DNA of 64,000 nucleotides, from the NCBI RefSeq assembly GCF_041248615.1, contig NZ_CP158426.1. One strand, 5' to 3'. Of the stretch, positions 21,079 through 48,734 are shown in pieces; position 1 is the first letter of the stretch; every line of letters starts with the position of its first letter. This stretch comes from Escherichia coli (GTDB lineage: Bacteria > Pseudomonadota > Gammaproteobacteria > Enterobacterales > Enterobacteriaceae). The translations under genes and the position numbers were made by a program. Below the pieces are notes generated by a model that worked only from the letters and a program-made list of their open reading frames with translations, was not told where the DNA came from and did no database searches.

Positions 21079-21081
21079 CAA

Positions 21082-23371: not shown

Positions 23372-23382
23372 TACGGGATCCA

Positions 23383-25747: not shown

Positions 25748-27498
25748 CAGAACTCCGTAACACTGAAGGGGGCGGCATCATGTTCACCGCCGACAGGTTC
25801 GTTGATAACGGCCAGCATGGTGGCCCATGCAAGATCGCCATGGCTTACGCCTCTTGCGCGATCTGTTTCGTAGGTGATAAATCCGGCCTGCGTTTTTGTT
25901 TTGCGTACCGCGTTAAAGGCGCTCACCAGTTCGCGCTCGCTGCGGTCGTACTCCCACCGCCCGGCGCGCATGAGCTGCAGCATCTTCAGAACCAGCGTGC
26001 GCTTTGATGACAGGGTGAAGGTGTAGGGAATGGCTGCCGGAAAAAAGCGCTTCACAATCTGATACACCGCATCCCCGTGACCGCCGGTTACGTCAATACC
26101 GATATGCTCAACGTTATAGCGAAAGGTGAACTCTTCAATCACCTTCGCCTGCGCCTCAAACTCCAGCCCCTGCACCCGCCGCGTCTCCACGGTGCGAAAA
26201 CGCCCGCCCGGTACGGCTGGCGGCACCACCACGACAACCGCCCCGCTGTCACCGTTCCCGCTACTGCCGTTGGCGTCGTACCCAATCCACACAGGGCGGT
26301 TCCCCATCGGACGCGGTGCAAACGGCTTCCAGTCCGGCCACTCGTCGTATCCGTCAACACCGCAGCCAATCAGGATATTCAGGTTAAATGCCGATTCCCC
26401 TTCGCGAGCAAATTCACACATGTAGAGATTGCGGAACTCGTCTTCAGTGTTATTGCGCCGGATTTTGTCAATGTTGGTTAACGTCCATCCCTGACTGACC
26501 ACATCTTCCAGCGTCACAATTTGCCGCCAGATATAGTCAGGACAGATAAGGCCGTTATGAAGCGCATTCCAGCTCACATCAAAATGCTGACGTTTATGAG
26601 TACGAAGCCCTTCATTCCAGTGATCGCCGTTCCAGTATGCATACGCCTCATGTGTTTCACTTGATGGCGTGGAAAAATAGGTACACCGCAAACCATCCAG
26701 CGTTGCCATAGCAGCAGCCACCTTGCGCAGCTCTGCGAAACGCCCCGTCCAGAAAAACTCATCAAAATACAGATTCCCTGTGTACGCTTGCGCGGTGGCC
26801 GCAGAAGTGCCGAGAAAATGCAGCTCTGCACCGTTGGAGAGGATGACTTTATCGCCCCCTTTCAGTTCCACATCAACTTCAGATGCAGCCTTCTGAATAA
26901 TGCTTTTAAACTGGAGCGCCTGACGACGAGACGCAGACAAAAAAATCTGGTTACGCTGGTAAGGTTGTGCCACATCGTCACGCAGCGCCATCAGCAGCGC
27001 TTCCTGCGCAAAATACCAGGTCGCCCCAATCTGGCGGGATTTCAGGATCATCCTGTCAGTAATTCCGGCACGCTCACAGGCACCGATAGCATCAAGCCAT
27101 TTGCGCTGGTGTCCGGCCAGCCTGTCGGTAATTTTTTCCCGCAGCGCCGCGATCTGTTCCGGCGTGAAATGATTTTTGTGTTTTTTCGCCCGGCCTTTCT
27201 TTCCTGTTGCCGTCTCATCCGGCAGACCGTCATGCAGCTTTTTAAGCTGACGGGTCAGCAAATCAATTTCCTTAAAGTCCCCGCCTGTTTTATTCTGTTT
27301 TTCCGTGAGCTGAATGAGTCGCGCATCCATGGACTGCGTGACACGCTGAACCGGGGGCGTCTCATCCCACTGGTCGCGTTTTTTCCACGAATGGATCGTG
27401 TTCTGGTTGATACCCATAAGGCGGGAAATTTCCGCAACAGGGTAACCCTGCCAGTACAGCTGGCGTGCCCGCTGGCGAACAAATGTATCCTGAATCAT
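25747..27498 (-). CDS. terminase large (ATPase) subunit (P2 gpP-like)
   Basis: 583 aa; divergent from gpO across a late promoter region. Confidence 0.85.
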   Translation of the reverse strand: MIQDTFVRQRARQLYWQGYPVAEISRLMGINQNTIHSWKKRDQWDETPPVQRVTQSMDARLIQLTEKQNKTGGDFKEIDLLTRQLKKLHDGLPDETATGKKGRAKKHKNHFTPEQIAALREKITDRLAGHQRKWLDAIGACERAGITDRMILKSRQIGATWYFAQEALLMALRDDVAQPYQRNQIFLSASRRQALQFKSIIQKAASEVDVELKGGDKVILSNGAELHFLGTSAATAQAYTGNLYFDEFFWTGRFAELRKVAAAMATLDGLRCTYFSTPSSETHEAYAYWNGDHWNEGLRTHKRQHFDVSWNALHNGLICPDYIWRQIVTLEDVVSQGWTLTNIDKIRRNNTEDEFRNLYMCEFAREGESAFNLNILIGCGVDGYDEWPDWKPFAPRPMGNRPVWIGYDANGSSGNGDSGAVVVVVPPAVPGGRFRTVETRRVQGLEFEAQAKVIEEFTFRYNVEHIGIDVTGGHGDAVYQIVKRFFPAAIPYTFTLSSKRTLVLKMLQLMRAGRWEYDRSERELVSAFNAVRKTKTQAGFITYETDRARGVSHGDLAWATMLAVINEPVGGEHDAAPFSVTEF

Positions 27499-27560
27499 TT
27501 CTCCCCCTCATGTGATTCAGGCAGTTTACTCACCCCTTACAGGCCTCCTGCCATGCCCGG

Positions 27561-27585
27561 TGTTGTCGGCATTCGCTTACAACAA
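27561..27585. promoter_or_regulatory. Ogr-type late-promoter dyad (TGT-N12-ACA) between divergent gpP and gpO
   Basis: TGTTGTCGGCATTCGCTTACAACAA; centre about 76 and 80 bp from the two start codons. Confidence 0.5.
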
Positions 27586-27652
27586 ACGCACTTTGTCTGT
27601 CCCTGCCCCGTTTTGCCATCATGAGACAAACGATCATCACGAGGGCCCGACA

Positions 27653-28489
27653 ATGCCTGAACAGAAAAAAACATCCCGTAAAACATTCCGCGTGGCCGTT
27701 TCCGGTCCCACCGCAGACGGTCGCGAAATCAGTGCCGCAGATTTGCGCGCGGCGGCCAGTAACTTCAACCCTGAGATTTACGGCGCACGCGTGAACGTGG
27801 AGCACTGGCTTTCACCGGTTCCGTCCAGTGAATTTTCCGCCATGGGTGATGTGACGGCACTGAGCACAGAAGAAATCACCGAAGGTCCGCTGGTCGGTCG
27901 TACTGCGCTGTATGCGGAAATCGAACCCACCGACCGCATGAAAAATCTGGTCTCCCGGGGTAAGAAAATTTACTCCAGTATTGAGCTGGCACGAAATTTC
28001 ACCCCTACGGGCACCCCGTATCTTATTGGCCTTGCCATGACAGACACCCCGGCAAGCATCGGCACGGAGCGTCTTCAGTTCGCCCTGCAGCAGCGCCGTT
28101 CGGTCATGACCTTCAATAATCAGCAGACGGAAGCACCGATGTTCTCTGACGCCATTGAGGCTGAAGTGATCGAACTGACGGAGCGCCGCAGCGAGGAAGG
28201 TGCGCAGTGGCTTAACCGCGTGATGAACATGATTGGGCGAGGACGCAGGGCTGACGACACCCGGTTCTCCCGCATTCATGACGCCGTTGAGGGGATAGCC
28301 TCATCGCATGCCGACCTTCTCGACCGCTTCAGTGCACTGGAATCGCGCCATCAGGCAGACAGACAGAAAATCGCCACCCTGTCCACTGAGCTGGCAGAGC
28401 TGAAAAACAGACTGCGCGGACTGGACGCTGATCAGGAAAGTCGTTTTACGGCAACCGGCGGGCAGTCCAGACAACTGGCTGACTACTGA
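27653..28489 (+). CDS. capsid scaffold protein (P2 gpO-like)
   Basis: 278 aa from ATG 27653; precedes major capsid gene. Confidence 0.85.
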   Translation: MPEQKKTSRKTFRVAVSGPTADGREISAADLRAAASNFNPEIYGARVNVEHWLSPVPSSEFSAMGDVTALSTEEITEGPLVGRTALYAEIEPTDRMKNLVSRGKKIYSSIELARNFTPTGTPYLIGLAMTDTPASIGTERLQFALQQRRSVMTFNNQQTEAPMFSDAIEAEVIELTERRSEEGAQWLNRVMNMIGRGRRADDTRFSRIHDAVEGIASSHADLLDRFSALESRHQADRQKIATLSTELAELKNRLRGLDADQESRFTATGGQSRQLADY

Positions 28490-28517
28490 CAGAAATAACC
28501 ACAAGAGGTGATAACCG

Positions 28518-29657
28518 ATGAATCTGATCATGAGCGATGCCGCGCGGGCCGAGCTTTTTGCTTACCAGGCACAACAGGCGGAGATGAATAACATCACGAT
28601 ATCTGCGCTCTCCTCCCGCTTTTCGGTACAGCCGGCAGTGCAGCAGAGATTTGAAAACGCATCAAAGGAAAGCCATGATTTTCTTCAGAAAGCCAACAGC
28701 ATTGGTGTGACAGAGCAGAAAGGTGAAAAGGTACTCCTGGACACCACCGGGCCGGTTGCGCGCACGAACAGCAGTTATGACGGTACAAATCGTCGTAACC
28801 CGCTGAATGTGGTGGACATGAAAGCGCGACGCTATGAGTGCGAGCAGGTGAACTACGACACCTTCATCTCCTACCCTCAGCTTGACATGTGGGCCGGACA
28901 CCCTGACTTCCAGCTGCGTGTGAGTCGCCAGATTGCCAGACAGGTGGCACTTGATCGCATCATGACAGGTTTTAACGGTACGCACCATGCGGAAGTCTCG
29001 GATATAAAAAAACACCCGCGACTTGAGGACGTCAATAAGGGGTGGCTGCAGGATATCAGGGACCAGGCCCCGCAACGCGTCATGAAAGACGTGATGCTGA
29101 CTGCGCGCAATATGGACAATTCGGTGGCATACACAGGCAGATACGCCAATCCCGATGCACTGGTCCAGGATGCACGCTCATCCCTGCTTGACGAATGGCA
29201 CAAGGACGCAGACGACCTCGTTGTCATCATGGGGCGAAACCTCTTTAACTCCCTGCGCCTGCCGGTCCTGAACAGTATCAGCATGCAGAATGCGAATGCC
29301 GAACTGCTTGCCGGACAGCTCATTGTGTCAACGCGGACCATTGGCGGCCTTGATGTGTACCTTGCGCCATTTTTCCCGGCTCAGTCAATGCTCATCACCT
29401 CATTCAGCAACCTGTCGGTTTACTGGCAGAAGGGGTCCATGCGTCGTCTCATGAAGGATGAGCCCGAATACAACCGTATCGCCATCTATCAGTCCGTTAA
29501 CGACTGCTATGTGGTTGAGGACCATGGTAAGTGCGCACTGATTGAGAATATCAGCTTTGCCACATATGACCATGACGCGCCGGACTGGTACCGGGAGGGC
29601 ATAAAAGCACTGTCAGCGCAGGCTGAAGACAAGGATGCAGGGGAAGAGGAGGATTAA
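28518..29657 (+). CDS. major capsid protein (P2 gpN-like)
   Basis: 379 aa; SD AGAGGTG. Confidence 0.85.
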   Translation: MNLIMSDAARAELFAYQAQQAEMNNITISALSSRFSVQPAVQQRFENASKESHDFLQKANSIGVTEQKGEKVLLDTTGPVARTNSSYDGTNRRNPLNVVDMKARRYECEQVNYDTFISYPQLDMWAGHPDFQLRVSRQIARQVALDRIMTGFNGTHHAEVSDIKKHPRLEDVNKGWLQDIRDQAPQRVMKDVMLTARNMDNSVAYTGRYANPDALVQDARSSLLDEWHKDADDLVVIMGRNLFNSLRLPVLNSISMQNANAELLAGQLIVSTRTIGGLDVYLAPFFPAQSMLITSFSNLSVYWQKGSMRRLMKDEPEYNRIAIYQSVNDCYVVEDHGKCALIENISFATYDHDAPDWYREGIKALSAQAEDKDAGEEED

Positions 29658-29659
29658 CC

Positions 29660-30436
29660 ATGCTGACACCGGCACAGGCTCATTTCCAGCACGTGATGGC
29701 TTTACGGGCAGGAACGGCAGCAGAAAACGAGGATATCGTGGCCCGCACGGCTCATGAGCAGGTCCTTCACCGTCTGCGCCTGGCACAGCAACGCATAAAG
29801 GGCGTCCAGGCAAAAGCGGCAAAGGCCGCGCTCAAGCGTGAAATGCTGCCGGGTTTTGCAGGCTGGATAGACGGCACGCTGGAAGCCGACGGCGGACAGC
29901 AGGATGAGGTGATAGCCACACTCATGGTGTGGGCCGTGGACTGTGGCGACCTGGCGCTTGCACTGCGCATCGGGGATTATGTGGTTCGCCACAACCTCAC
30001 GATGCCTGACAACTTCGGGCGTACGGCAGCCACGGTACTGACCGAGGAAATCTGCAACCCTGTTCTGACACAGGCCGGAACGGATGCACACGCCGATTTG
30101 TCCGGCTACATCGAACCGCTGGACACCCTCTGGCAAATTGTCGCGAACCGGGACATGCCCGATGAGGTCCGCGCCAAGCTGTGCAAGGCATGCGCCTTTG
30201 CCCGTCGTGGCCTGACCGATGCCGACAGCATGGCGGTGAGTCTGAAGCTGTTCCGTGAGGCAATGCACCTTAACCCGAATGCGGGGGTAAAACGTGAGAT
30301 TGCCACGCTTTCACGGGCCCTGAAAAAGGCCGGACAGGATGAAGCCGCTGCCGCACAGGAGCCTGCGGCACAGAAAGATACAACCAGAGAACAGACCACG
30401 ACGCCGAAGGCGAAAGCGAAGGCGAAACGTGGTTAA
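29660..30436 (+). CDS. terminase small/endonuclease subunit (P2 gpM-like)
   Basis: 258 aa; conserved DMPDEVRAKL region recalled from P2 M. Confidence 0.85.
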   Translation: MLTPAQAHFQHVMALRAGTAAENEDIVARTAHEQVLHRLRLAQQRIKGVQAKAAKAALKREMLPGFAGWIDGTLEADGGQQDEVIATLMVWAVDCGDLALALRIGDYVVRHNLTMPDNFGRTAATVLTEEICNPVLTQAGTDAHADLSGYIEPLDTLWQIVANRDMPDEVRAKLCKACAFARRGLTDADSMAVSLKLFREAMHLNPNAGVKREIATLSRALKKAGQDEAAAAQEPAAQKDTTREQTTTPKAKAKAKRG

Positions 30437-30538
30437 CGGCTGACCCCGTCAGAAGGCGGCGTGCCGGGCGTTCCGGTTACGGTTTTCCGTTCCCCTTACA
30501 CCCGGCACCCACCGCCTTTTTTTCTGAAGGAGCGATTT

Positions 30539-31033
30539 ATGAGCATGGTCGCAAGACCGGAAGCCGCCCCTGCACGGGACGATATCCCCGACACCGACGA
30601 CGGCGACGCCACCATCACCGCCGGGGCATTCTGGCCGGAGATTGTGCTGCGGGAGCTGCGCCTTGCAGTACGCCTGCCGGGCCGCATCACCTCCACACGT
30701 CTGGCGCACGTTGCCACGGGAGCCGTGGCTCACGTCACGCGGGAGCTGGAAGAGTGGCAGAAGGCGCAGTCTGCCGCAGGGTTCAGCATCCTCGCAGAAG
30801 TGCCTGCCGCCACCATCAACGGTGAGAGCGTCAACGTATGGCATTACCGCAACGCCGTCTACAGCGCCACCCGCGCCCTGATTCTGGAACGCTGGCGGGA
30901 TGTGGACACCACTGATAAAGGGGACCGCCGGGCTGACGCACTGGATGAGCAGATGGAAGACTTATGGCGCGATGTGCGCTGGTCCGTGGCAGATATTCTG
31001 GGTCGCCCCCGTCTTTTTGCGGAGCTGGTGTGA
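30539..31033 (+). CDS. head completion protein (P2 gpL-like)
   Basis: 164 aa from ATG 30539 with SD GAAGGAG. Confidence 0.8.
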   Translation: MSMVARPEAAPARDDIPDTDDGDATITAGAFWPEIVLRELRLAVRLPGRITSTRLAHVATGAVAHVTRELEEWQKAQSAAGFSILAEVPAATINGESVNVWHYRNAVYSATRALILERWRDVDTTDKGDRRADALDEQMEDLWRDVRWSVADILGRPRLFAELV

Positions 31034-31230
31034 TGAAAGTGAGGGCACTCCAGGGGGATACCGTCGATTTACTCTGTTTCCGGCACTACGGCACCACGCA
31101 GGGGGTGACCGCACAGGTACTTGATGCCAATCCAGGGCTCTGCCGCCAGGTAATTCTGGAAGCGGGACAGGAGGTGGAAATGCCGGAGCCGGAAAGGAAA
31201 CAGCAACGCGAAAAGGTAAAGCTATGGTGA
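31033..31230 (+). CDS. tail protein X (LysM-like, P2 gpX-like)
   Basis: 65 aa MKVRALQGDTVDLLCFRHYG; ATG overlaps gpL stop. Confidence 0.85.
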   Translation: MKVRALQGDTVDLLCFRHYGTTQGVTAQVLDANPGLCRQVILEAGQEVEMPEPERKQQREKVKLW

Positions 31231-31514
31231 CGGGATTTTTTCAGCGCGTCAGTGACTGGATCACCTTCTGGGCGTCAGTGACGGCAACAACCATTGGTGT
31301 TATGACCATCAGCGAAAAAATTGCGCTGGCCGGGCTGCTTCTGGGGTCACTTTCCGCCATCCATGCCTGGTGCCACCGCAGGCGTACGGAGCAGGCAATG
31401 AAGCGCCGCAATGACCTTATCGCCCGCATCCTGGCACGTTCAGAAAACCGCGAGCTTCACGACGGTGAGAGACGGGCACTGGACAGCGTGAGACAGGACG
31501 GAGAAGAGCGGTGA
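31224..31514 (+). CDS. holin (pinholin-like, 2 TM)
   Basis: 96 aa; two TM segments then charged C-terminus; immediately upstream of endolysin. Confidence 0.7.
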   Translation: MVTGFFQRVSDWITFWASVTATTIGVMTISEKIALAGLLLGSLSAIHAWCHRRRTEQAMKRRNDLIARILARSENRELHDGERRALDSVRQDGEER

Positions 31515-32056
31515 AACTGCCGGTAAAACGTTATGCGGTGGCGGCCATTGTGGCGCTGGGCGTCTCCATGGCACCCGGTGAACTGAGAACCTCACGGGAA
31601 GCACAGATAAAAATCGCCACCCGGGAAGAGTGCCGGGCGACACCGTACCGTGATATTGCAGGAGTAATGACCGTGGGATGTGGTTCAACAGGGGGCGTGG
31701 AGAACCGGGTTTACGGAGAAAAGGAGGTGGCCCGCCGCTGGGTGAATGACCTGCGGCACGCGGAAAACTGTATCAACCAGAACTTCAGCGGTGCCGCCAT
31801 GCCCCAGTCCGCCTTTGAGGCGATGACCGACGCGGCGTTCAACGTCGGCTGTACCGGCCTGATGTGGTACCGGGACAGGAGCGGCAACCGGCAGCGCACC
31901 ACCATCTGGAAGCACGCACAGGCGCACCGCTGGGTGGCGATGTGCGGGAGACTGACCGATTTTGTCAACAGTGGCGGACGCCGCTCACAGGGGCTGGTTA
32001 ACCGCCGGGAGGAGTTCAGACAGTGGTGTCTTCGCGACACGGGAGGCAGCACATGA
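31511..32056 (+). CDS. SAR endolysin (T4/P21-type lysozyme, GH24-like)
   Basis: 181 aa; N-terminal signal-anchor; motifs YRDIAGVMTVGCG and NVGCTG; REEFRQWC tail as in phage-21 lysozyme. Confidence 0.8.
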   Translation: MKLPVKRYAVAAIVALGVSMAPGELRTSREAQIKIATREECRATPYRDIAGVMTVGCGSTGGVENRVYGEKEVARRWVNDLRHAENCINQNFSGAAMPQSAFEAMTDAAFNVGCTGLMWYRDRSGNRQRTTIWKHAQAHRWVAMCGRLTDFVNSGGRRSQGLVNRREEFRQWCLRDTGGST

Positions 32057-32460
32057 GACCGGTTTACGCCGTGATTGTTGCCCTCATGGTGACCACCCTG
32101 ACGGCGGCGGCCATGTGGCAGTCATACCGGCTGGGGCGTGCCGGTGAGGCACGTGACGCCGCAGAGCAGCAGCTGGGCGAATACAGCCGGGCGCTGCGTG
32201 AGTCCTCCGCCGTTATCAGCGATGCCTCCGCCGTACTGCATGAGGTGATGACGCAGCGACAGAAAAGGGCACAGGAAGGAGAAGTCAGACGTGAACAGCT
32301 TCGCGAAATTGCTGCGACGGATGAGTGCGCCGGCACTCTTCCTGACCACCGTTTTACTGACCGGCTGCGCGAACACACGGAACGCGCCACTGCCCGCGCC
32401 CTCCTTCCGGTTCATTCCGGCGGGACTGACGACGGGAACACGGCCCCCGCCCTTCCCTGA
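32053..32460 (+). CDS. i-spanin (Rz / P2 LysB-like)
   Basis: 135 aa; ATGA overlap with endolysin; N-terminal TM then coiled coil. Confidence 0.7.
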   Translation: MRPVYAVIVALMVTTLTAAAMWQSYRLGRAGEARDAAEQQLGEYSRALRESSAVISDASAVLHEVMTQRQKRAQEGEVRREQLREIAATDECAGTLPDHRFTDRLREHTERATARALLPVHSGGTDDGNTAPALP

Positions 32461-32605
32461 ACACCCCACCTGGGGAAATATCGGGATATGGAGCGACAGC
32501 CTCCTGGATGCACTGGAAACCTGCAACGCAGACAAACGGGCCATTGAGGCGATGGAGCGCCGGAGACTCAACCGACAGAACGGAGAGGCGCATGCTGAAA
32601 AGTAA
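32291..32605 (+). CDS. o-spanin lipoprotein (Rz1 / P2 LysC-like), out of frame within and beyond the i-spanin gene
   Basis: GTG start with SD AGGAAGGAG; signal peptide with lipobox LLTGC; Pro-rich. Confidence 0.65.
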   Translation: MNSFAKLLRRMSAPALFLTTVLLTGCANTRNAPLPAPSFRFIPAGLTTGTRPPPFPEHPTWGNIGIWSDSLLDALETCNADKRAIEAMERRRLNRQNGEAHAEK

Positions 32606-33056
32606 ATCCCTGAGCACACACATGAGTACAGCGTGCCGGTGGTGCAGGGCCAACCCGGAAAAGTTCACCGTGTTCATTGAACGTGGCGGGATAGAGACCA
32701 CCGGCGAGACGCCGACGTTCGTGTACAACTACCGGCTGGTGATGTTCGTGATGGACTACACGGGCGATCTGGACAACCTGACGCTTCCACTGATTGTCTG
32801 GCTGGCAGAGAACCAGCCGCAGTTGCTGCTTAATCCTGAGCGCAACAACGATATTCAGTTCACGGCGGCCATTAACGACGACGACAGCGCGGACGTGCTG
32901 TTTGAGCTGCCGTTACGTGAACGCGTGCGCGTCACCCGCAGGGATGACGGCACCCTCATGACAGAACATCTACCGGAGCCGAAATCACGCATCCCGCAGG
33001 ACGGCGACTGGTCACACATTCTGGAGGATGTGACGTGGAACATTGTCACCGGATAA
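32592..33056 (+). CDS. tail completion protein (P2 gpR-like)
   Basis: 154 aa from ATG 32592 with SD GGAGAGG. Confidence 0.8.
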   Translation: MLKSKSLSTHMSTACRWCRANPEKFTVFIERGGIETTGETPTFVYNYRLVMFVMDYTGDLDNLTLPLIVWLAENQPQLLLNPERNNDIQFTAAINDDDSADVLFELPLRERVRVTRRDDGTLMTEHLPEPKSRIPQDGDWSHILEDVTWNIVTG

Positions 33057-33071
33057 CACGCGGAGAATGTT

Positions 33072-33728
33072 ATGGGGAAACTGAGATACCGTAACCTCGT
33101 TCCCGCTGAAGGAATGAGTAACATGTTTGTCAATATCCGGCTGGCAACCAGCCCGCAGGCAGTGAAGCGCATTGCCGCGCATGTGGGTAAGGAGCTGCGG
33201 CGCGTGAACCAGAGCCGGATGCGCGCCCAGAAAGCGCCGGACGGTTCGGTGTGGACACGCCGTAAACGCCGTATATCACGCCTTCAGGAGCGCATCAGCT
33301 TTATCTGGCAAAACCAGAACCGCACCCTGAAAAACTGGCATCACGGTTCAGGAAAATACGGCCAGACCATCACCGGCTGGGATGAAGACCGGAGCGGCAT
33401 ACGTACCTTTTACCGGAGTGATATCCTCCGTTTCCTTGAAATCAGGACACGCCGCATCAACCGTGACACCACAAAAACGGTGCCGATGTTTGCGAAGCTG
33501 CGCACGGCCCGTTATCTGAAAGTGAAGGCGGACGCATCAGGCGTGACGGTGGGCTACAGCGGCGTGGCGGCACGCATTGCCCGCGTTCACCAGTTCGGGG
33601 AGCGCGACCGGGTGGCCGCAGGGATGTATACGGATTATCCGGCCCGTGAACTTCTTGGAATAACACCGGCAGATGAACGACTTATTCAGCGTATCATTAT
33701 GGACAATATCGCGAGGGCTGTGGCATGA
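33072..33728 (+). CDS. virion morphogenesis / tail completion protein (P2 gpS-like)
   Basis: ORF open from 33072 (SD GGAG); true start may be internal (33114) giving a shorter product. Confidence 0.7.
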   Translation: MGKLRYRNLVPAEGMSNMFVNIRLATSPQAVKRIAAHVGKELRRVNQSRMRAQKAPDGSVWTRRKRRISRLQERISFIWQNQNRTLKNWHHGSGKYGQTITGWDEDRSGIRTFYRSDILRFLEIRTRRINRDTTKTVPMFAKLRTARYLKVKADASGVTVGYSGVAARIARVHQFGERDRVAAGMYTDYPARELLGITPADERLIQRIIMDNIARAVA

Positions 33729-34656: not shown

Positions 34657-35553
34657 ATGCCTTCCGTTGACCTGTCACAGTTACCGGAACCGGCCATCAT
34701 CGCGCAGCCGGATTTTGAGTCCATCCTGGCAGACATTAAAACCATGATGGTGAGCTCCTTCCCGGAAGAATACCGCGCCGCCGTCACCCGTGCCCTTACT
34801 CTGGAATCCGAGCCATTGAACATCATTTCCCAGGCCATGGCCTTTCGTGAAATGCTGCTTCGCCAGCGCATCAATGAAGCCGCCCGCGCCTGCATGCTCA
34901 GCCACAGCCGGGGCAGTGACCTGGACAATCTGGCCGCCAACAACAACACCCGCCGCCTGGTCATTCATCCGGCCACTGATACCACGGAAGCAGTGATGGA
35001 AAGCGACACATCGCTGCGTCTGCGTGCCCAGTCAGCCTGGGACGGCCTGAGTGTGGCCGGACCGTCCGGCGCGTATGAGTATTTTGCCCGGAGCGCAAGC
35101 GGTCTTGTCCGTGATGCGCGCGCCATCAGCCCGTCACCGGCCACAGTCACCGTCTCCATCCTGTCAGCAGACGGTGACGGCACCGCCGGTGAGGCGTTAC
35201 TGAACACGGTGCGCACCGCCCTGAATGCCGAGAACGTGCGCCCGGTTGCCGACCGCCTGACTGTGCAGAGTGCTACCATCGTGAACTGGGTAATGGAAGC
35301 GAAGCTGTATTTTTATCCAGGGCCGGAGTCTGAACCCATGCTTGCGGCCGCTGACGCCGCTTTCCGTGCATGGCTGGCAGACCAGGGCCGTATCGGTCAG
35401 GACGTGGCCCTGTCAGCCATCACTGCAGCGCTGCATGTTCACGGTGTCCAGCGCGTTGAGGTCATAAAACCCACGCAGAACATCACCATCAGTGACACTC
35501 AGGCAGCCAGATGTACCACATTCAGCATCAGCGAAGGAGGACGCAATGAGTGA
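34657..35553 (+). CDS. baseplate protein (P2 gpJ-like)
   Basis: 298 aa. Confidence 0.85.
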   Translation: MPSVDLSQLPEPAIIAQPDFESILADIKTMMVSSFPEEYRAAVTRALTLESEPLNIISQAMAFREMLLRQRINEAARACMLSHSRGSDLDNLAANNNTRRLVIHPATDTTEAVMESDTSLRLRAQSAWDGLSVAGPSGAYEYFARSASGLVRDARAISPSPATVTVSILSADGDGTAGEALLNTVRTALNAENVRPVADRLTVQSATIVNWVMEAKLYFYPGPESEPMLAAADAAFRAWLADQGRIGQDVALSAITAALHVHGVQRVEVIKPTQNITISDTQAARCTTFSISEGGRNE

Positions 35554-36109
35554 CAGGAAAAAAACAGACAGCGCACAGCACAGTACATCACTGCTTCCAC
35601 CGTCCGCAGGGCCATTCATGCGCGCCACAGAGGCGACAGGAGTACGCATCAGTACCATACCGGTGGACGCCGACACCCTGTGGTCGCCGGACCGCTGCCC
35701 TGCTCACCTCCTGCCCTACCTTGCATGGGCATGTTCCGTTGACAGCTGGGACCGCAACTGGCCGGAAGAGACCAGGCGACAGGTGATTCGGGACGCATGG
35801 ATGATACATCGCCACAAAGGGACCATCAGTGCACTCCGCCGCATCGTTGAACCACTGGGCTACCTCATCCGTGTATCAGAATGGTGGGAGTTTGACGGCT
35901 CGCCCGGGACCTTCACCATTGAGATTGGCACACTTGAAACCGGAGTAAGTGAAGAGCTGCATGAAGAAATGGAGCGTCTGATTGCCGATGCGCGCCCCGT
36001 CAGCCGCCACCTCGTGGGGCTTAGTATCATCCAGGAAATACACGGTGCCATTTACGCCGCTGCCGCAGGTTACGACGGCGACATCATCACCATTTACCCG
36101 GAAGACTGA
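35546..36109 (+). CDS. baseplate protein (P2 gpI-like)
   Basis: 187 aa from ATG 35546 overlapping gpJ stop. Confidence 0.8.
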   Translation: MSDRKKTDSAQHSTSLLPPSAGPFMRATEATGVRISTIPVDADTLWSPDRCPAHLLPYLAWACSVDSWDRNWPEETRRQVIRDAWMIHRHKGTISALRRIVEPLGYLIRVSEWWEFDGSPGTFTIEIGTLETGVSEELHEEMERLIADARPVSRHLVGLSIIQEIHGAIYAAAAGYDGDIITIYPED

Positions 36110-36112
36110 ACC

Positions 36113-38347
36113 ATGAGCACGAGAAAATTCAGAACCCTTATCACCGACATCGGGCTGGCAAAGCTGGCCGCAACAACGGCGCCTGGCGGTAGACCTGTAC
36201 GCCTTACGCACATGGCTGTAGGGGACGGCAATGGAGAGCTTCGTCAGCCGCAGAAAAACCAGACATCGCTTTACAATGAGGTTTGGCGCCAGTCTGTCAA
36301 CCGCGTCTTCACCGACCCGGAGAACCCGAACCGCCTCATCGCCGAACTGGTCATTCCTCCTGAAACCGGCGGATTCTGGGTGCGTGAAATTGGTGTGTTT
36401 GATGATACAGGTACAATGATTGCAGTAGGAAATACCGCTGAAAGTTACAAGCCCACCAGAGAGGAAGGTTCAGGGCGGGCGCAGATATTCCGTGCAGTAA
36501 TCACCGTCACCTCCGACGCCGTGGTGGAACTGGTCATGGACACAACAACAATTCTGCCGACCACGGACTACATTGATGAGAAAATGGCGGAACACGCACG
36601 TTCCCGTAACCACCCTGACGCGACACTGACAGAAAAAGGATTCACCCAACTGAGCAGCGCCACAAACAGCACCTCTGAAACACTGGCCGCCACACCGAAG
36701 GCCGTCAAGGCTGCATATGACCTTGCAGCCGGTAAAGCACCCGCCAGCCACACCCACCCGTGGAATCAGATAACTGGTGTGCCATCAGCCTCGCTGACGG
36801 CAAAAGGCACCGTACAGCTGAGCAGTGCCACAAACAGTGAGTCAGAGACTGAGGCGGCCACCCCCAAAGCGGTTAAAGCCTTACACGATATGGTGACGAG
36901 CAAGTATACAGGACAGGATGCAACCACCGGACGCAAAGGCATCGTACAGCTGAGCAGCGCCACAAACAGCAATTCCGAAACACTGGCGGCCACACCGAAG
37001 GCAGTAAGTGATGCACTGAGCATGGCGTTCGTGAAGCCAACAACATCCCTGGGGGAAACAGACCTGAACACTCTGGGGCGTAAGGAAGACGCGGGAGATT
37101 ATTACCAGCAGAGTGACTCAGGTGCGAGAACAGACAGAAACTATCCTGTAGAGAAGGCAGGAGAGTTACGCATCCGTGTTGGTGCATGGGGATTCTGCCA
37201 GCATGAATACACGAGCTGGGATCCGCCACGAAAATTTATCAGGACAGTTACCGGAAACTTTAACGGTAACGGCCCATGGTCAGAGTGGGTGGAGGTGACA
37301 AACACAGATGCAACAACTGGACGCAAAGGCATCGTACAGCTGAGCAGCGATACAAACAGCAATTCCGAAACGCTGGCGGCCACACCAAGAGCCGTCAAGG
37401 CTGCATATGACCTTGCAGCCGGTAAAGCACCCGCCAGCCACACCCACCCGTGGAATCAGATAACAGGTGTGCCATCAGCCTCGCTGACGGCAAAAGGCAC
37501 CGTACAGCTGAGCAGTGCCACAAACAGTGAGTCAGAGACTGAGGCCGCCACCCCCAAAGCGGTTAAAGCCTTACACGATATGCTGACGAGCAAGTATACA
37601 GGACAGGATGCAACCACCGGACGCAAAGGCATCGTACAGCTAAGCAGCGCCACAAACAGCAATTCCGAAACGCTGGCGGCCACACCAAAAGCTGTTAAAG
37701 CTGCGTATGACCTTGCCAACAGCAAAGCCTCGGCAGCCCACACTCATCGCTGGGCTCAGATCACAGACGCCCCTGTTTTTTCGTCTGTTGCCCGCGTCAT
37801 CATGGGTAAACAAAGCATAAAAGATATTCTTGATTACTTTGGTTTAGGAGAAGGCTCGACGCTGCCAGTTGGCGTACCCGTTCCGTGGCCTTCGTCAAGA
37901 CCACCTGAGGGGTGGTTACAGTGCAACGGTGCCGCATTCACGCGTACAAAATACCCAAAACTGGCGGTGGCCTACCCTGACCTCAGGCTACCAGATTTGC
38001 GCGGGGAATTTATTCGTGGATGGGATGACCTGCGAATGATTGACAGGGGACGCTTATTGTTATCCACACAGGAAGCAACATATATTTGTACCGCCATACA
38101 GGCGTACCACGGCGTAGCGGGAGGTGCAGATATTCAGGCAGGGATTTCATTTGCATCACATGATAACGACATCATAAACATAACCCCTGATCAACCCAGA
38201 ACCGGTAACGGCATCCTGTACGGCACAAAACCAGTTGACAGATGGGCAATAGCCAGAGCCGGTAAGCTGGTGAGTAATGAAAAAGACAGATGGATAGCGA
38301 TCAGACCGCGCAATATCGCTTTTAATTATATTGTGAGGGCAGTTTAA
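36113..38347 (+). CDS. tail fibre protein (P2 gpH-like) with internal repeats
   Basis: 744 aa; repeated 35-aa units (GRKGIVQLSSATNSxSETLAATPKAVKA); divergent lower-GC C-terminal tip. Confidence 0.85.
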   Translation: MSTRKFRTLITDIGLAKLAATTAPGGRPVRLTHMAVGDGNGELRQPQKNQTSLYNEVWRQSVNRVFTDPENPNRLIAELVIPPETGGFWVREIGVFDDTGTMIAVGNTAESYKPTREEGSGRAQIFRAVITVTSDAVVELVMDTTTILPTTDYIDEKMAEHARSRNHPDATLTEKGFTQLSSATNSTSETLAATPKAVKAAYDLAAGKAPASHTHPWNQITGVPSASLTAKGTVQLSSATNSESETEAATPKAVKALHDMVTSKYTGQDATTGRKGIVQLSSATNSNSETLAATPKAVSDALSMAFVKPTTSLGETDLNTLGRKEDAGDYYQQSDSGARTDRNYPVEKAGELRIRVGAWGFCQHEYTSWDPPRKFIRTVTGNFNGNGPWSEWVEVTNTDATTGRKGIVQLSSDTNSNSETLAATPRAVKAAYDLAAGKAPASHTHPWNQITGVPSASLTAKGTVQLSSATNSESETEAATPKAVKALHDMLTSKYTGQDATTGRKGIVQLSSATNSNSETLAATPKAVKAAYDLANSKASAAHTHRWAQITDAPVFSSVARVIMGKQSIKDILDYFGLGEGSTLPVGVPVPWPSSRPPEGWLQCNGAAFTRTKYPKLAVAYPDLRLPDLRGEFIRGWDDLRMIDRGRLLLSTQEATYICTAIQAYHGVAGGADIQAGISFASHDNDIINITPDQPRTGNGILYGTKPVDRWAIARAGKLVSNEKDRWIAIRPRNIAFNYIVRAV
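36640..37700 (+). repeat. near-identical ~330-bp duplication inside the tail fibre gene
   Basis: segments around 36640-36990 and 37300-37690 almost identical at DNA level. Confidence 0.7.
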
Positions 38348-38958
38348 TGAGTAACACTGCAGTTCTGGATGAAAACGGTATCGCCACTTTCGCAGGCGAT
38401 ATCACTGTATATCACTATGATGAGGAAACCCGGGAATACACCTCATCCTCTGTGGAGTATCTCGCCCTGGGGGTGGGTACCCCGGCACATTCATGCGCCG
38501 ATGCCCCGCCAGAGGCAATGCCGGGTTACGTGATTTGCCGGACGTCCACGCTGGACGGGTGGGAGTATGTCCCCGATCATCGTGGAGAGACGGTATACAG
38601 CACAGAGAACGGTAATCCGGTCCAGATTACCCAACCAGGTGACTACCCGGAAGGGACAACGACAAAACAGCCTGCCACACCATGGGATACCTGGAACGGT
38701 GAGGCGTGGGTAACCGATACAGAACGGCAGCAAGCCGAAGAGCTGGAGGTTGCCAGACAGCAACGCAAGGAACGGGTGGATCAGGCGATGAAGTCCATCG
38801 ACCTCATCAACCTTAAGTTGCGGGCAGGTCGCAGTCTGACACCAGAAGAAACGGCAAAACTGAATGCCGTGCTGGATTATATCGACGAGCTGAACGCACT
38901 GGATATCAGCACGGAGCCTGAAATAAGCTGGCCGGAAACACCACCAGAAATGGAATGA
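38347..38958 (+). CDS. tail fibre assembly chaperone (P2 gpG-like)
   Basis: 203 aa; ATG overlaps gpH stop. Confidence 0.8.
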   Translation: MSNTAVLDENGIATFAGDITVYHYDEETREYTSSSVEYLALGVGTPAHSCADAPPEAMPGYVICRTSTLDGWEYVPDHRGETVYSTENGNPVQITQPGDYPEGTTTKQPATPWDTWNGEAWVTDTERQQAEELEVARQQRKERVDQAMKSIDLINLKLRAGRSLTPEETAKLNAVLDYIDELNALDISTEPEISWPETPPEME

Positions 38959-39028
38959 GCGGGGAAAAGGAACGGGCATTCATAAATAATTCATCATGCA
39001 GGTGCCGCAAGAATGCGGCACATTACCT

Positions 39029-39517
39029 TCACATCAGATCATTTACGCCGCTTACTGTGGTATTCCAGACCGAACTTAACTTCCCTTTCATTCCCGAAAG
39101 CATATCAGACACCGGCGACGAGGCCATACTCTCCCGCAAATCCTCATCACAGCGTTCCAGACTGACAGTGAACTCAATTTTTTTGGCCTTACCGTGGCGG
39201 TCAAGTTCGCTTCGCGTTGTGCGGACAGCCGTTATCACATACATGCCGTATATCTGCCCCACACCGTCAATCAGCGGCCATGGGCGACCAGTGTAAGCCT
39301 GCGTCGTTAAAAGGCTGAGGGAAACCTCACCGCCGGTAATTTCGGGATAAAGCACACCGGACAACGTGATCTGGTCGTCACCCGCCCCGATATACTGCCA
39401 GCTGGCCGAACGATTGATGCGTTCATTTTTAACGTGGCGCCAGGTTTTATTATGTTGCAGTTGTTGATGAGGCAGCGTACGCAACTCAAAAACAAACATG
39501 CCGTAAATCATCATCAT
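39029..39517 (-). CDS. tail protein (P2 gpU-like)
   Basis: 162 aa; last gene of the reverse-oriented tail block. Confidence 0.8.
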   Translation of the reverse strand: MMMIYGMFVFELRTLPHQQLQHNKTWRHVKNERINRSASWQYIGAGDDQITLSGVLYPEITGGEVSLSLLTTQAYTGRPWPLIDGVGQIYGMYVITAVRTTRSELDRHGKAKKIEFTVSLERCDEDLRESMASSPVSDMLSGMKGKLSSVWNTTVSGVNDLM

Positions 39518-39528: not shown

Positions 39529-42500
39529 CTAATCTCTGTCACGGAAACTACCGACTGTCTGGCGGATACGGCGTTCCATTTCCGCACGGACGGCATCACC
39601 CACCATTTTTGCCAGTTCGCGCGGGTTTTGCGTGTGAACATCATGCAGGTGAATATGCAGTTCGCCAGTTAATCCCCATGGTGCCGGCTCACTCTGGCGC
39701 GGTCGGGGCGATGCGGGGGATATGGGCTGGCGCACAGCCTCAACCACCGGACGGGATGTTGCCGCCATCACTGGTGTCATTAGCGGGGAGAACGTCGGCA
39801 TGACATCGTGAGTCATAACCGGTTTGATCACCGGCGGAACCACTGGCGTAATATTACCGGACAGTACCGGACGGACGACCGGAGGAATAACCGGCACATT
39901 ATTCACGGACACCACCGGCTTCACGACCGGCGACACGTTCGCCGTGGTGGATATCAGCGGCGAAACACTGACAGGCGGTGGCGCTGGCAGCGGTGGCAAC
40001 GAAGGCACACTGACCGACGGCACCTGCGGCAGTCTGACAGGTGGCTCACTGACACTACCCGGTAACAGGGAAGCTGCTCGGTTAAAGCGTTCCTCCTTCC
40101 ACTCACCACGAACGGCCAGCGCTTCCGGCAGGTTTTTAAAGATAATATCGCCGGGACCAGCGCGTTTTTTCGCCTGTTTCGCCTCATCCAGCAGACCACC
40201 GGTGTTATCGACGATTTTGTTCAGGCGGCGCATAGTGCCGGTATTCTCCCCCGTCAGGGGTGGTTGCCCCCCTTTGGGTTTTTCGCCGTCTTTTTTATCC
40301 TCGTCCTTTTTCGGCGGATTAATGACGTTAACATCCGCCAGAAGCATGGCAGCTTTCTCGTTCAGCAACTCCTTCTGTTTTAGTTCTTCCGCCTTTTTCC
40401 GGGCGCGCTCAACCGCCGACGGAATCAGCCCGAGTTTTTCCAGCACCCGGGTTAATGAGTCAATCAGCAGCGTAACCGGACCGGTCACCAGATTGCTGAT
40501 AAACTCCCCTACCTTCTGCCCGAACGTACGCCCGGCTTCCGTGCACTTGTCCAGCTCATCCTTTGTTGTGCTTACCGGCGCGAACAAATCCACGAACCAC
40601 TGCCACACACGCCCGATTGTCTGCCCGACATACTCAAACAGCGGTCCCAGTGGTGCCACAGCCTCGCGCAGTGGCGTAAGCCCCTGCCACAGGCCGGACA
40701 AGAACCCGCCCACGACAGCCTTCAGCTGGTCCCAGTGCCGCCAGATAAGCACTGCCGCACCGACCAGTGTCGCCACCACAAGGCCCACCGGACTTAACAG
40801 AAAACCCAGCGCCCCGCCAAGTGCGCCCACCGCACCACTCACCATCCCCCACAGTGCGGGCAGACCTGACAGTCTGAGCGCCAGTATTCCGATACCGCGC
40901 CCCAGTGAAATCAGTGCGCCGCCAGGTGAAGTGAACGCAGCCAGCAGACCACCACGCAGCGCGCCAAGTCCCGCCTGCACACCACGAAGCCGCCCCGCAA
41001 CTACGCCCAGCAGTGCAGCAAACCGTCCGGCACCGGAGGTGATACCGACAAACAGCACGCGCCAGCCACCGATACCGCCCAGCGGACCACCGAGTACGCC
41101 GCGCAGCTGCGTCAGTAACGGCAGCGCACGACCGAGGCCGGATGTGCCGGTCAGCAGGGCAAACCCAAGACGCAGTTTTGCCAGCGGCCCCATCAACACA
41201 CCAGTGGCAAGTGACAGCGCCCCCATGGCCGCAACCGCAGCCAGCAGTACACCACCGGCAATCAGCAGTTGTTTTGTCAGTTCAGGGTGCGCCTGAGCCA
41301 GCGCGGTGACTTTCGCAATAACCCGGGTGAACGACTGCGTGACAGAACGCAGCGGCCCGTCAACGAGGTCAGCGACACGGATACGCAGTCCTTCCCATGC
41401 GCTGTTCAGTGATTTCAGGTCACCGTCCAGGTTATCAGCCATAACACGGGCAGTGTGATTAAGTTCCCCGGTGGCCAGTTCAATCTCCTGCGTAAGACGG
41501 GGAAGATTATTTTCCCCCGCCGCAGTGACAAGATTCATCAGGGAAACATAGGACTCCTGCCCGGCAATAGCCCTGAAAAAGGAGACCTGCGCGGCATTAC
41601 CGTATTTTCGGGTGGCCTGGTACAGCTCATTCAGGATATTTTCCATCCGGCGCATGTTCCCGTAAGCATCCTGCGTCTCCACGCCAAGCTCTTTCAGTGC
41701 CATTGCAGCGGCCTTCGGCGGATCAACCAGACGTGACAGACTGGCACGCAGCGCCGTACCTGCATCACTTCCACGGATCCCCACACTGCCAAGGACACCC
41801 GTCATGGCTGCCGCCTGTTCAAGGGACAGGCCAAGTGAAGCTGCAACCGGACCCGTGTACTTCATGGTTTCACCCAGTGAACGGAGATCCGTATTGGTTC
41901 GTGTGAAGGTGGCGGCCAGCGTGTCACCCACGCGATCCATCTGGTCAGCGGACAGACCAAACTGTGTGAGGATATTCGAACTGATATCGGCAGTCTGTCC
42001 CAGGTCCATCCCTGCAGCCATTGCCAGATCAAGCACGCCGGGTAGCGCCGCCTGTATGGCCTGTGGTGTGAAGCCGGCCATGGCAAGGAACGCCTGACCG
42101 CTGGCAGCATCACCGGCGGTAAACTGCGTTTCAGAGCCCAGCTTAATGGCCTGTTCGCGCAGCGCCTTAAACTGCGGACTGTTTTTGTCAATACGGGTCA
42201 GCGCCTGGACGCGTGACATCTCCTTACCAAAACTGACCGCCGGTTGCAGGAAACGTCCGGCCGCATAGCCGCCTGCCGCCGCCGTACCAACCGCCGTAAG
42301 TCCGACCGTTTTAAGTTTTCCCGCCGTCTCCTGAGCACGGGAATATTGCTGGCGTGCCTGCGTGACACGTGCCAGCGCCTGCCGTTCGCGTTCCAGCTGG
42401 TCGTTGTATTGCTGTGTTCGCCGTATGGCCTGTTGAATGGTGTTGTCACTGCCGGAAAGCGCAATACCGTGGCGCCGCAGCTCACCACCCAGTTCGCGCA

Positions 42501-46501: not shown

Positions 46502-46753
46502 ATGTTCCGTTGTCCCCTATGCGGTGCATCCGCACGTATCCGCACCAGTCGCAATGAAAATGATTCAGGCACAGTTCGCCTGAAGTACTACCAGTGCAAT
46601 AACCTCGAATGCGGGATCGGCTTTACCACACTGGAGGGTTTTAACAAATTCACATCAAAACGCGCCCCGTCGCCGCAGGGTACAGAGCGGATACCGTGGG
46701 AAGATTTTCCGGGATCTCACAGGGGGAATACTCAGATTAATCTTGATATTTAA
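46502..46753 (+). CDS. ogr: Ogr/Delta-family zinc-finger late activator
   Basis: 83 aa; MFRCPLCG...YYQCNNLEC four-Cys finger; SD AAGGAG. Confidence 0.85.
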   Translation: MFRCPLCGASARIRTSRNENDSGTVRLKYYQCNNLECGIGFTTLEGFNKFTSKRAPSPQGTERIPWEDFPGSHRGNTQINLDI

Positions 46754-46759: not shown

Positions 46760-46897
46760 TAATCAGGTTGAGAGGACATCATAAGGCAAGTAGATTAACG
46801 GCAGATACTTTCCCGCAACCACGGGCAAGTATTTAATTATCCATGATGAAATATGACCTAAATTGTTTTTTGCCCGCCGGAAAGCGGGCATTTTTTT
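46760..46897 (+). repeat. repeat unit 1 (partial) ending in bidirectional intrinsic terminator
   Basis: shares GTTGAG...AGTAGATTA...CCATGAT...TTTTGCCCGCCGGAAAGCGGGCATTTTTTT with four downstream units. Confidence 0.55.
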
Positions 46898-47111
46898 ATT
46901 CTTTTGTGGTTATGGGGTCATCAGGAACCACGTGCAGATTATATTTTTGTTTTTTTGGCGTTCCTCCGGCAGCAACGAGTTCATCAATAAGACACTGACA
47001 CGCCTGAACATCCCGGGCATGTCTTAGTTTCACCTTTATTGATTTAACCTTATCCTCACCGGAGGAGAAATGCAGTTCAATCTCAATATCGTTTCTTCGG
47101 AACAATCTCAT
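46896..47111 (-). CDS. small protein of unknown function
   Basis: 71 aa (MRLFRRNDIEIELHF...); two decayed copies downstream; palindrome upstream. Confidence 0.5.
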   Translation of the reverse strand: MRLFRRNDIEIELHFSSGEDKVKSIKVKLRHARDVQACQCLIDELVAAGGTPKKQKYNLHVVPDDPITTKE

Positions 47112-48732: not shown

Positions 48733-48734
48733 AT

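What the first reader, a model, noticed from the sequence alone, without database searches (positions are those of the whole stretch)
36640..37700. Recent internal duplication of a ~330-bp repeat block in the tail fibre gene
Two nearly identical DNA segments each encode three ~35-aa fibre repeats. Near-identity at DNA level implies a recent in-frame duplication that lengthens the fibre shaft; such repeats are prone to slippage and length variation.
Basis: seen in the sequence. Interest (0 to 1): 0.3.

Follow-up and report, generated by a model that had tools for sequence, protein, structure and literature searches.

The report
Shuffled repeat modules in prophage tail fibre
The tail-fibre gene of a P2-like E. 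coli prophage carries two almost identical 296-bp stretches either side of a knob domain; they belong to a repeat array that recombination keeps reshuffling, which is real but ordinary for phage fibres.

Summary
Window 36701-36996 and 37391-37686 are 296 nt with 5 mismatches (98.3%; 4 synonymous, 1 Val/Leu), inside a 300-nt repeat of 94% (36635-36934 vs 37325-37624). It is not an assembly artefact: 22 complete E. coli genomes carry the identical gene.

It is not a simple duplication. The copies lie 690 bp apart. Between them is a unique segment encoding a ~100-aa domain that folds like the knob of R-type pyocin fibres. The gene (36113-38347, 744 aa, P2 gpH type) reads: N-terminal domain, then units L(56 aa)-S(44)-K(130, knob)-L-S-C, then a collar tip.

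Alleles whose single-copy parts are at least 98.3% identical have at least 10 unit arrangements (626-856 aa), six of them in chromosome-scale assemblies. They differ by clean whole-unit indels of 132, 168 or 390 bp. One allele has lost the knob and carries a chimeric repeat head. None of the five A/B differences is fixed between the two positions.

Best reading: repeated unequal homologous recombination or gene conversion among units, possibly between co-resident prophages, changes shaft length and knob content. A P2 record's gpH shows tandem units of ~90% DNA identity. This is a new member of a known kind, of low interest.

The parts
36113..38347 (+). Tail fibre gene (P2 gpH type), 744 aa
   Evidence: ORF, translation. 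Pfam PF12571 N-terminal domain, 6x PF03406 repeats and PF07484 Collar. Annotated 'tail fiber protein' WP_064755960.1 in an identical genome. 68% identical to P2 gpH over the N-terminus plus repeats.
36113..36634 (+). N-terminal baseplate-attachment domain (aa 1-174), single copy
   Evidence: PF12571 covers aa 4-151, E=6e-50. Alleles differ at 0-4 of 522 nt.
36635..36802 (+). Unit 1, type L (56 aa): diverged head h1 plus an L linker containing HTHPW
   Evidence: Unit map. Head differs from unit 4 head at 16 of 78 nt; linker differs at 1 of 90 nt.
36803..36934 (+). Unit 2, type S (44 aa)
   Evidence: differs from unit 5 by 2 nt in 132.
36935..37324 (+). Unit 3, type K (130 aa): repeat head, knob-like domain (aa 299-398, 37007-37306), then DATTGR junction
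   Evidence: No Pfam, NCBIfam or PDB sequence match. AlphaFold2 model pLDDT 91.9. Foldseek top hits include R1/R2 pyocin fibres 6cl5, 6cl6 and 6ct8, probability 1.0, TM 0.62-0.67. Alleles differ at 0-1 of 300 nt.
37325..37492 (+). Unit 4, type L (56 aa)
37493..37624 (+). Unit 5, type S (44 aa)
   Evidence: Absent from, or replaced by an L unit in, alleles L001, L002 and L005.
37625..37792 (+). Unit 6, type C (last repeat head plus a diverged linker with HTHRW)
   Evidence: aa 498-556 match the phage Mu tail fibre S structures 5yvq and 8ju3, E about 1.5e-7.
37793..38347 (+). C-terminal tip with collar domain (Collar aa 587-634, 37871-38014)
   Evidence: PF07484 E=2.7e-13. T4 gp37 tip structure 2xgf, E=3.5e-12, and the shared C-terminal IAFNYIVR.
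36701..36996 (+). Near-identical tract, copy A (L linker, S unit and most of the next head)
   Evidence: 5 mismatches in 296 nt against copy B.
37391..37686 (+). Near-identical tract, copy B
38347..38958 (+). Tail fibre assembly chaperone gene (context)
   Evidence: PF02413 Caudo_TAP, E=4.5e-27; annotation.

Best explanation
The two near-identical segments are paralogous blocks of a modular repeat array in the shaft of a P2 gpH-type tail fibre. The array is L-S-K-L-S-C, where L is a 56-aa unit, S a 44-aa unit, K a 130-aa unit carrying a pyocin-knob-like domain, and C the last unit. All units begin with a homologous ~78-nt head. Unequal homologous recombination and gene conversion between units therefore add, remove, swap and homogenise whole modules in frame. 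These exchanges can occur within one gene, between sister chromosomes, or between related prophages in the same cell.

The window allele's block B (linker-S-head) shares very recent DNA ancestry with block A through such an exchange. It did not arise by a one-off tandem duplication. The expected consequence is variation in fibre shaft length and in the presence and position of the knob, with the baseplate-binding N-terminus and the receptor-binding tip unchanged.

Shown here: the repeat anatomy, the allelic series, the whole-unit breakpoints, the chimeric head in the knobless allele, and co-resident paralogous prophages. Inferred: the recombination pathway (RecA-dependent or other), the order of events, and any effect on adsorption or host range.
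For: - Repeat anatomy and the synonymous-site identity of the core tract.
- Six PF03406 repeats flank a unique domain.
- Eight sequenced alleles have single-copy parts differing at 0-4/522, 0-1/300 and 0-11/645 nt, yet show eight different unit orders.
- At least 10 arrangements occur among the top 120 database homologues. Six of them are in chromosome-scale assemblies.
- Pairwise alignments to the window show clean indels: +168 bp at 36700, +168 bp at 37624, -132 bp at 37511-37642, and an S-to-L swap.
- The knobless allele L003 carries head h12. This is the 5' part of the K head joined to the 3' part of the following L head, as expected for a head-by-head crossover deleting 390 bp.
- Identical S units (h7/t5) occur before the knob in L001, L002 and L006 and after it in L007 and L008. 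Linker alleles t1 and t4 swap positions between the window and L005. None of the five A/B differences is fixed by position.
- Strain Ch1 (CP127316) has the 744-aa allele at 9088-11322 and an 812-aa allele near 4.85 Mb.
- The gpH gene of a P2 record has four tandem 44-aa units with ~90% DNA identity.
Against: - The order and direction of events cannot be resolved from these data. Two routes remain open: gene conversion from block A into block B, or an L-S-K duplication followed by loss of the second knob.
- No double-knob allele of this lineage was seen among the 120 proteins inspected.
- Some rarer arrangements (L007, L008; 800 and 856 aa) come from short contigs and could be mis-assemblies.
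- No rate of rearrangement and no phenotype was measured.
- With only 1-5 differences per unit, the evidence for exchange between the two positions is qualitative.
Confidence: 0.8

Rival explanations
1. A single recent in-frame duplication of a ~330-bp block lengthened the shaft in this lineage, and the copies have simply not yet diverged.
For: The core is 98.3% identical, including at synonymous sites. The copies are in frame and in register.
Against: The copies are 690 bp apart with a unique knob segment between them, and no tandem array is detected. A tandem event would also have duplicated the knob. The tract boundaries lie inside units. The layout is shared by several architectures and hundreds of contigs. 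All A/B differences are polymorphic, and block-A and block-B unit alleles are interchanged among alleles.
Confidence: 0.1
2. Assembly artefact: the second copy is an expansion error, or the window mis-joins two prophage fibre genes.
For: Repeats of about 300 bp are hard for short-read assemblers. Collapsed 514-aa versions do occur in short-read and metagenome contigs.
Against: Twenty-two complete E. coli genomes from different hosts and countries have the gene at 99.7-100% identity over its full length. The exact 744-aa protein is recorded on more than 400 contigs (P0027). The artefact seen in practice is collapse, not expansion. Three of the nine 514-aa contigs show multi-switch A/B SNP mosaics.
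Confidence: 0.02
3. The similarity reflects only strong purifying selection on a conserved structural motif, with no recent DNA exchange.
For: The repeat is a conserved Pfam motif, and the protein sequences of all heads are similar.
Against: Four of the five differences in 296 nt are synonymous, and every other synonymous site is identical. Heads encoding nearly the same peptide elsewhere in the same gene differ at 9-25 of 78 nt.
Confidence: 0.02
4. A programmed diversification device, such as a diversity-generating retroelement (template and variable repeat) or a site-specific invertible or shufflon segment as in Mu and P1 fibres.
For: Two near-identical repeats in a receptor-binding gene resemble a TR/VR pair on the surface.
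Against: Both copies are in the shaft of the same ORF, not at the tip. The mismatches are T/A, G/C, G/C, G/A and A/G, so they are not adenine-specific. The neighbours are gpI, the tail fibre assembly gene and gpU, with no reverse transcriptase or invertase gene beside the fibre gene. There are no inverted repeats in 35.5-39.5 kb.
Confidence: 0.01

Closest known systems
Phage P2 gpH tail fibre and the Pfam 'Phage tail fibre repeat' PF03406
   Same: Same N-terminal domain (PF12571). Same repeat motif (KGxxQLSSxTNSxSETxAATPKAVKxAYD). Same gene order: J, I, H, then the tail fibre assembly gene. 68% identity over the N-terminus plus repeats. A P2 record's gpH has four tandem 44-aa units at ~90% DNA identity.
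   Different: This fibre mixes 56-aa and 44-aa units, has a knob domain inserted in the array, and has a different tip (collar, T4 gp37-like). No cultured phage in the collection covers more than 61% of it.
Knob domains of R-type pyocin tail fibres (PDB 6cl5, 6cl6, 6ct8)
   Same: The predicted fold of aa 299-404 matches with probability 1.0 and TM 0.62-0.67. The domain recurs 1-6 times per protein in 254 representative fibre clusters. A 'pyocin knob' is described as a mobile tail-fibre pseudo-domain in PMC12143355.
   Different: Only about 20% sequence identity, with no Pfam or NCBIfam model match. Here there is a single knob embedded between repeat blocks, whereas the pyocin fibre has two knobs next to the foot (that layout is from my own knowledge).
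Duplications in tail-fibre genes that change host range (T4 gp37, Tetart et al. 1996; Enterococcus phage EfV12-phi1)
   Same: In-frame intragenic duplication or copy-number change of a fibre segment through homologous sequences. PMC6365445 reports varying numbers of 1.8-kb tandem duplications arising during coevolution, and cites Tetart 1996.
   Different: Those are tandem and were observed experimentally with a phenotype. Here the copies are dispersed around a knob, are inferred from natural alleles, and have no phenotype data.
Phage Mu tail fibre S (PDB 5yvq, 8ju3) and T4 gp37 tip (PDB 2xgf)
   Same: The last repeat unit (aa 498-556) aligns to Mu S residues 110-166, E about 1.5e-7. The collar (aa 582-639) aligns to T4 gp37, E=3.5e-12, and the C-terminal IAFNYIVR is shared.
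   Different: No invertible segment as in Mu. The tip is much shorter than the T4 gp37 needle.

Membership tests
Phage_fiber_2 repeat-containing tail fibre (PF03406) | Matches to the repeat model above the Pfam gathering score | tested here: met
   342 bits against a cutoff of 22; six stretches.
P2 gpH-type tail fibre | N-terminal PF12571 domain and sequence similarity to P2 gpH | tested here: met
   PF12571 E=6e-50. tblastn to Peduovirus P2 gives 68% identity over aa 1-541 in two pieces.
P2 gpH-type tail fibre | Gene context: baseplate J, then I, then fibre, then tail fibre assembly chaperone, inside a P2-like prophage | tested here: met
   Pfam Baseplate_J, Tail_P2_I and Caudo_TAP on the neighbouring ORFs. 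RefSeq annotation of an identical locus lists integrase, Cox, V, W, J, I, fibre, assembly protein, U, E, tube, sheath, D and ogr.
Tandem intragenic duplication | Copies adjacent head to tail, with everything between the breakpoints duplicated | tested here: not met
   690-bp spacing with 390 bp of single-copy knob sequence between the copies. TRF finds no array.
Pyocin-knob domain | Fold similarity to the knob domains of R1/R2 pyocin fibres | tested here: met
   Model pLDDT 91.9. Foldseek hits 6ct8, 6cl6 and 6cl5 at probability 1.0, TM 0.62-0.63, E 0.014-0.017. These E-values are modest.
Pyocin-knob domain | Match to a curated sequence model of the domain (CDD cd19958, from memory) | not testable with these tools
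   CDD is not among the libraries. Pfam and NCBIfam give no hit.
Diversity-generating retroelement target | Nearby reverse transcriptase, and adenine-specific TR/VR differences | tested here: not met
   Neighbouring genes are all tail genes. The mismatches are not adenine-specific.
Invertible fibre segment (Gin/Cin type) | Inverted repeats flanking alternative fibre C-termini, plus an invertase gene | tested here: not met
   No inverted repeats in 35500-39500. No invertase is annotated in the prophage.

The most novel reading that the evidence does not exclude
The near-identical blocks either side of the knob might act as a built-in, high-frequency recombination switch. Within a lysogen or phage population they would keep producing fibres of different length, with or without the knob. 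That would be a recombination-based bet-hedging system for host range, fed also by exchange between co-resident sister prophages. The many architectures on an almost invariant backbone are compatible with this. No rate was measured, and the predicted 514-aa A-by-B deletion product was found only in short-read assemblies that look collapsed.
Probability: 0.1. Interest if true: 0.5.

Novelty: new member of a known kind. Interest (0 to 1): 0.2.

Why it matters
In practice, this fibre family is a trap for short-read assembly and for annotation. Collapsed 514-aa versions and a propagated 'short-chain fatty acid transporter' name are both in public databases.

Biologically, it is a clean natural example of how phage receptor-binding fibres evolve by module shuffling. 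Six or more shaft architectures, including loss of a knob domain, sit on a backbone that is about 99% identical. Isogenic comparison could test directly whether shaft length and knob content affect adsorption through O-antigen or capsule. The principle itself has been established for phage fibres since the 1990s, so the result refines that picture and does not change it.

Tried and rejected
- Tandem Repeats Finder on 35-40 kb found no array in the gene, so the copies are dispersed.
- Pfam, NCBIfam and PDB sequence searches of the intervening 106 aa gave nothing significant. Only a structure prediction and fold search identified it.
- megablast against cultured phages found only repeat-level matches at 81-83%. 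tblastn found no phage covering 80% or more of the protein.
- I predicted the product of copy-A by copy-B recombination (514 aa). Both possible sequences exist exactly in the protein collection. I do not count them as evidence, for three reasons: all carriers are short-read or metagenome contigs; three of the nine have multi-switch SNP mosaics; and no complete genome ranked where a 100%-identical allele with 69% coverage would appear.
- The DGR and invertible-segment readings were rejected.
- A Chi-site scan of 30-45 kb printed no sites.
- An Rfam scan of 28-52 kb found nothing.
- Literature searches for a specific description of repeat-number polymorphism in E. coli P2-like fibres found none in the library.
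- I could not decide between gene conversion and duplication followed by knob loss.

Full report
**1. Observation**

The region lies in one ORF, 36113-38347 on the + strand, 744 aa. The repeat finder reports a two-copy direct repeat of 300 nt, 36635-36934 vs 37325-37624, at 94% identity and 690-bp spacing.

Codon-by-codon comparison resolves a core of 296 nt, 36701-36996 vs 37391-37686, with five mismatches at 36775, 36856, 36893, 36952 and 36982. Four are synonymous and one is Val->Leu. Upstream, the homologous repeat head (36635-36700) is only about 76% identical, and homology ends near 37010. Chance cannot produce such a match.

Tandem Repeats Finder finds no array, because the copies are not adjacent.

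**2. What the gene is**

Pfam gives the P2-type N-terminal fibre domain (PF12571, aa 4-151), six Phage_fiber_2 repeats (PF03406, E=1.3e-104) and a Collar domain (PF07484, aa 587-634). The neighbouring ORFs are Baseplate_J, Tail_P2_I and a Caudo_TAP chaperone.

The window is E. coli chromosome. An identical locus in strain LH10-b-1 is annotated with integrase, Cox, V, W, J, I, tail fibre, assembly protein, U, E, tube, sheath, D and ogr, lying between dmsA and serS. The closest cultured phages, including Peduovirus P2, match only the N-terminus plus repeats, at 53-61% coverage and 64-70% identity.

**3. Anatomy of the array**

Splitting the gene at the repeat motif gives six units:

| Unit | Type | Residues | Note |
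|---|---|---|---|
| 1 | L | aa 175-230 (56 aa) | linker contains HTHPW |
| 2 | S | aa 231-274 (44 aa) | |
| 3 | K | aa 275-404 (130 aa) | repeat head, non-repeat insert, DATTGR junction like the end of an S unit |
| 4 | L | aa 405-460 | |
| 5 | S | aa 461-504 | |
| 6 | C | from aa 505 | diverged linker containing HTHRW |

The near-identical tract runs from the end of an L head, through the L linker and the S unit, into most of the next head. Its boundaries therefore fall inside units.

The insert in K (aa 299-404) matches no Pfam, NCBIfam or PDB sequence. It does have homologues in 254 representative protein clusters, with one to six copies per protein, interleaved in some proteins with Phage_fiber_2 repeats. 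An AlphaFold2 model built on a 52-sequence alignment has pLDDT 91.9. Its best PDB fold matches are an Acinetobacter phage tailspike and the R1/R2 pyocin fibres 6cl5, 6cl6 and 6ct8, at probability 1.0, TM 0.62-0.67 and about 20% identity. I call it pyocin-knob-like. A 'pyocin knob' is described as a mobile fibre pseudo-domain in PMC12143355.

**4. Not an artefact**

Twenty-two complete E. coli genomes carry the gene at 99.7-100% identity over its full length. The exact protein is recorded on more than 400 contigs.

**5. Comparative evidence**

Other complete genomes carry alleles of 756, 812 and 626 aa. Database homologues add 756, 800, 812 and 856 aa forms.

The single-copy parts of eight alleles are nearly invariant. 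The N-terminal part differs at 0-4 of 522 nt, the knob at 0-1 of 300 nt, and the C-terminal part at 0-11 of 645 nt. Their unit orders, however, all differ:

| Allele | Unit order |
|---|---|
| window | LSK-LSC |
| L005 | LSK-LLC |
| L001 | LLSK-LC |
| L002 | LLSK-LLC |
| L006 | LLSK-LSC |
| L007 | LSK-LSLC |
| L008 | LSK-LSLLC |
| L003 | LSLLC (no knob) |

Two further orders appear among the top 120 proteins. Six arrangements are in chromosome-scale assemblies.

Global alignments to the window show clean whole-unit events: +168 bp at 36700, +168 bp at 37624, -132 bp at 37511-37642, and an S-to-L replacement. The knobless allele has a chimeric head, h12. It joins the 5' part of the K head to the 3' part of the following L head, as expected from a head-by-head crossover that removes 390 bp.

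**6. Duplication or exchange?**

- Identical S units occur before the knob in some alleles and after it in others.
- The two L-linker alleles t1 and t4 occupy opposite positions in the window and in L005.
- At 36775, 36856 and 36893 the block-A sequence of L001, L002, L005 and L006 carries the window's block-B base.
- The other two A/B differences are also polymorphic.

There is therefore no fixed, position-specific difference. This is the signature of continuing exchange (concerted evolution) and does not fit one duplication followed by divergence.

The divergence between copies (1.7%) is no smaller than the allelic divergence of the flanks. The event is thus not recent relative to the spread of this prophage lineage.

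Strain Ch1 carries both a 744-aa and an 812-aa allele in one chromosome. A contig of the same length as the TUM9803 chromosome likewise carries an 812-aa allele. Inter-prophage recombination is therefore possible. I cannot tell whether block B arose by gene conversion from block A, or by an L-S-K duplication followed by loss of the second knob.

**7. A prediction and a caution**

Recombination between copies A and B would delete 690 bp and give a 514-aa L-S-C fibre. Both possible products exist exactly in the protein collection. However:

- All nine carriers are short-read draft or metagenome contigs, several of them MEGAHIT k141 contigs.
- Their flanks are essentially identical to the window.
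- Three show multi-switch A/B SNP mosaics.
- No complete genome has this form.

I treat them as probable assembly collapses. The same caution applies to L007 and L008, which come from contigs of 4.7 and 8.3 kb.

**8. Mechanism and function**

Shown: a modular array whose units are added, lost, swapped and homogenised in register.

Inferred: homologous recombination through the shared heads and linkers drives this. The outcome would be fibres of different shaft length and knob content carrying the same attachment domain and tip. Such fibres could affect reach through O-antigen or capsule.

Precedents are the tandem fibre duplications that arise under selection in Enterococcus phage EfV12-phi1, reported in PMC6365445, which also cites Tetart 1996 on T4 gp37. 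The gpH gene of a P2 record contains four tandem 44-aa units at about 90% DNA identity.

From my own knowledge: HxH motifs in the T4 gp37 needle bind iron, so the HTHPW and HTHRW motifs may do likewise. This was not tested.

**9. Alternatives rejected**

- Protein-level constraint alone is excluded by the synonymous-site identity.
- Assembly expansion is excluded by the complete genomes.
- A DGR is excluded: no reverse transcriptase nearby and no adenine bias.
- An invertible segment is excluded: no inverted repeats.

**10. Verdict**

The feature is an ordinary, if well illustrated, case of repeat-module shuffling in a P2-family tail fibre. It is a new member of a known kind, with interest about 0.2.

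Noticed in passing
window 15583-33086 and 41032-42199: Strain LH10-b-1 (NZ_CP100530) has the same prophage but lacks these 17.5-kb and 1.17-kb stretches. What remains there is integrase, Cox, small ORFs and the baseplate, fibre, sheath, tube, D and ogr genes, with a broken tape-measure gene and no annotated capsid or lysis genes. The window copy appears to be the full-length P2-like prophage (about 10.5-47 kb).
   Followed up: partly
window 46800-50000: Between the prophage end (ogr, 46502-46753) and serS lies a mosaic of direct repeats of 110-230 nt, 66-99% identical, at spacings of about 0.2, 0.65, 1.2 and 1.8-2.0 kb. It includes a 197-bp tandem pair at 49152-49537 and a Hok/Gef-like ORF at 47789-47929. 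Rfam found nothing at gathering threshold.
   Followed up: partly
L010-L018 (contigs encoding 514-aa fibres): Short-read and metagenome assemblies contain a 514-aa version of this gene that equals the window gene minus 690 bp. Three of the nine show multi-switch mosaics of the copy-A and copy-B SNPs. This is probably repeat collapse by the assembler, so short-read fibre lengths in this family should not be trusted.
   Followed up: partly
window 36113-38347 (database names): Several NCBI and UniRef entries for this exact 744-aa tail fibre are named 'short-chain fatty acid transporter'. This is evidently a propagated misannotation.
   Followed up: no
window 37007-37324: The knob-like insert belongs to a widespread fibre module: 254 representative clusters, one to six copies per protein, consensus DLNTLG...YYQ...NYP...G.L.V....YGCQQEYT...RKF.R...W..W.E. 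It has no Pfam or NCBIfam model in the libraries searched.
   Followed up: partly
NZ_CP127316 (strain Ch1) 9088-11322 and about 4850496-4855934; NZ_CP135671 (TUM9803): One E. coli chromosome (Ch1) carries two sister P2-like prophages with different fibre alleles, 744 aa and 812 aa. They are a possible substrate for inter-prophage recombination. For TUM9803, co-residence is inferred only from matching contig and chromosome lengths.
   Followed up: partly
L019 (NC_070905, Peduovirus P2) 2501-4711: The gpH gene in this P2 record is 736 aa, with four tandem 44-aa units. Adjacent copies are 89.7% identical over 339 nt. From memory, this is longer than the 669-aa gpH usually quoted for P2, which hints at repeat-number differences among P2 stocks. 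Not checked.
   Followed up: no
window 36470-37743, minus strand: A series of 95-118-aa antisense ORFs (36470-36757, 36766-37071, 36873-37229, 37141-37443, 37456-37743) lies opposite the repeat array. I assumed they are by-products of the repetitive GC-rich coding sequence and did not examine them.
   Followed up: no
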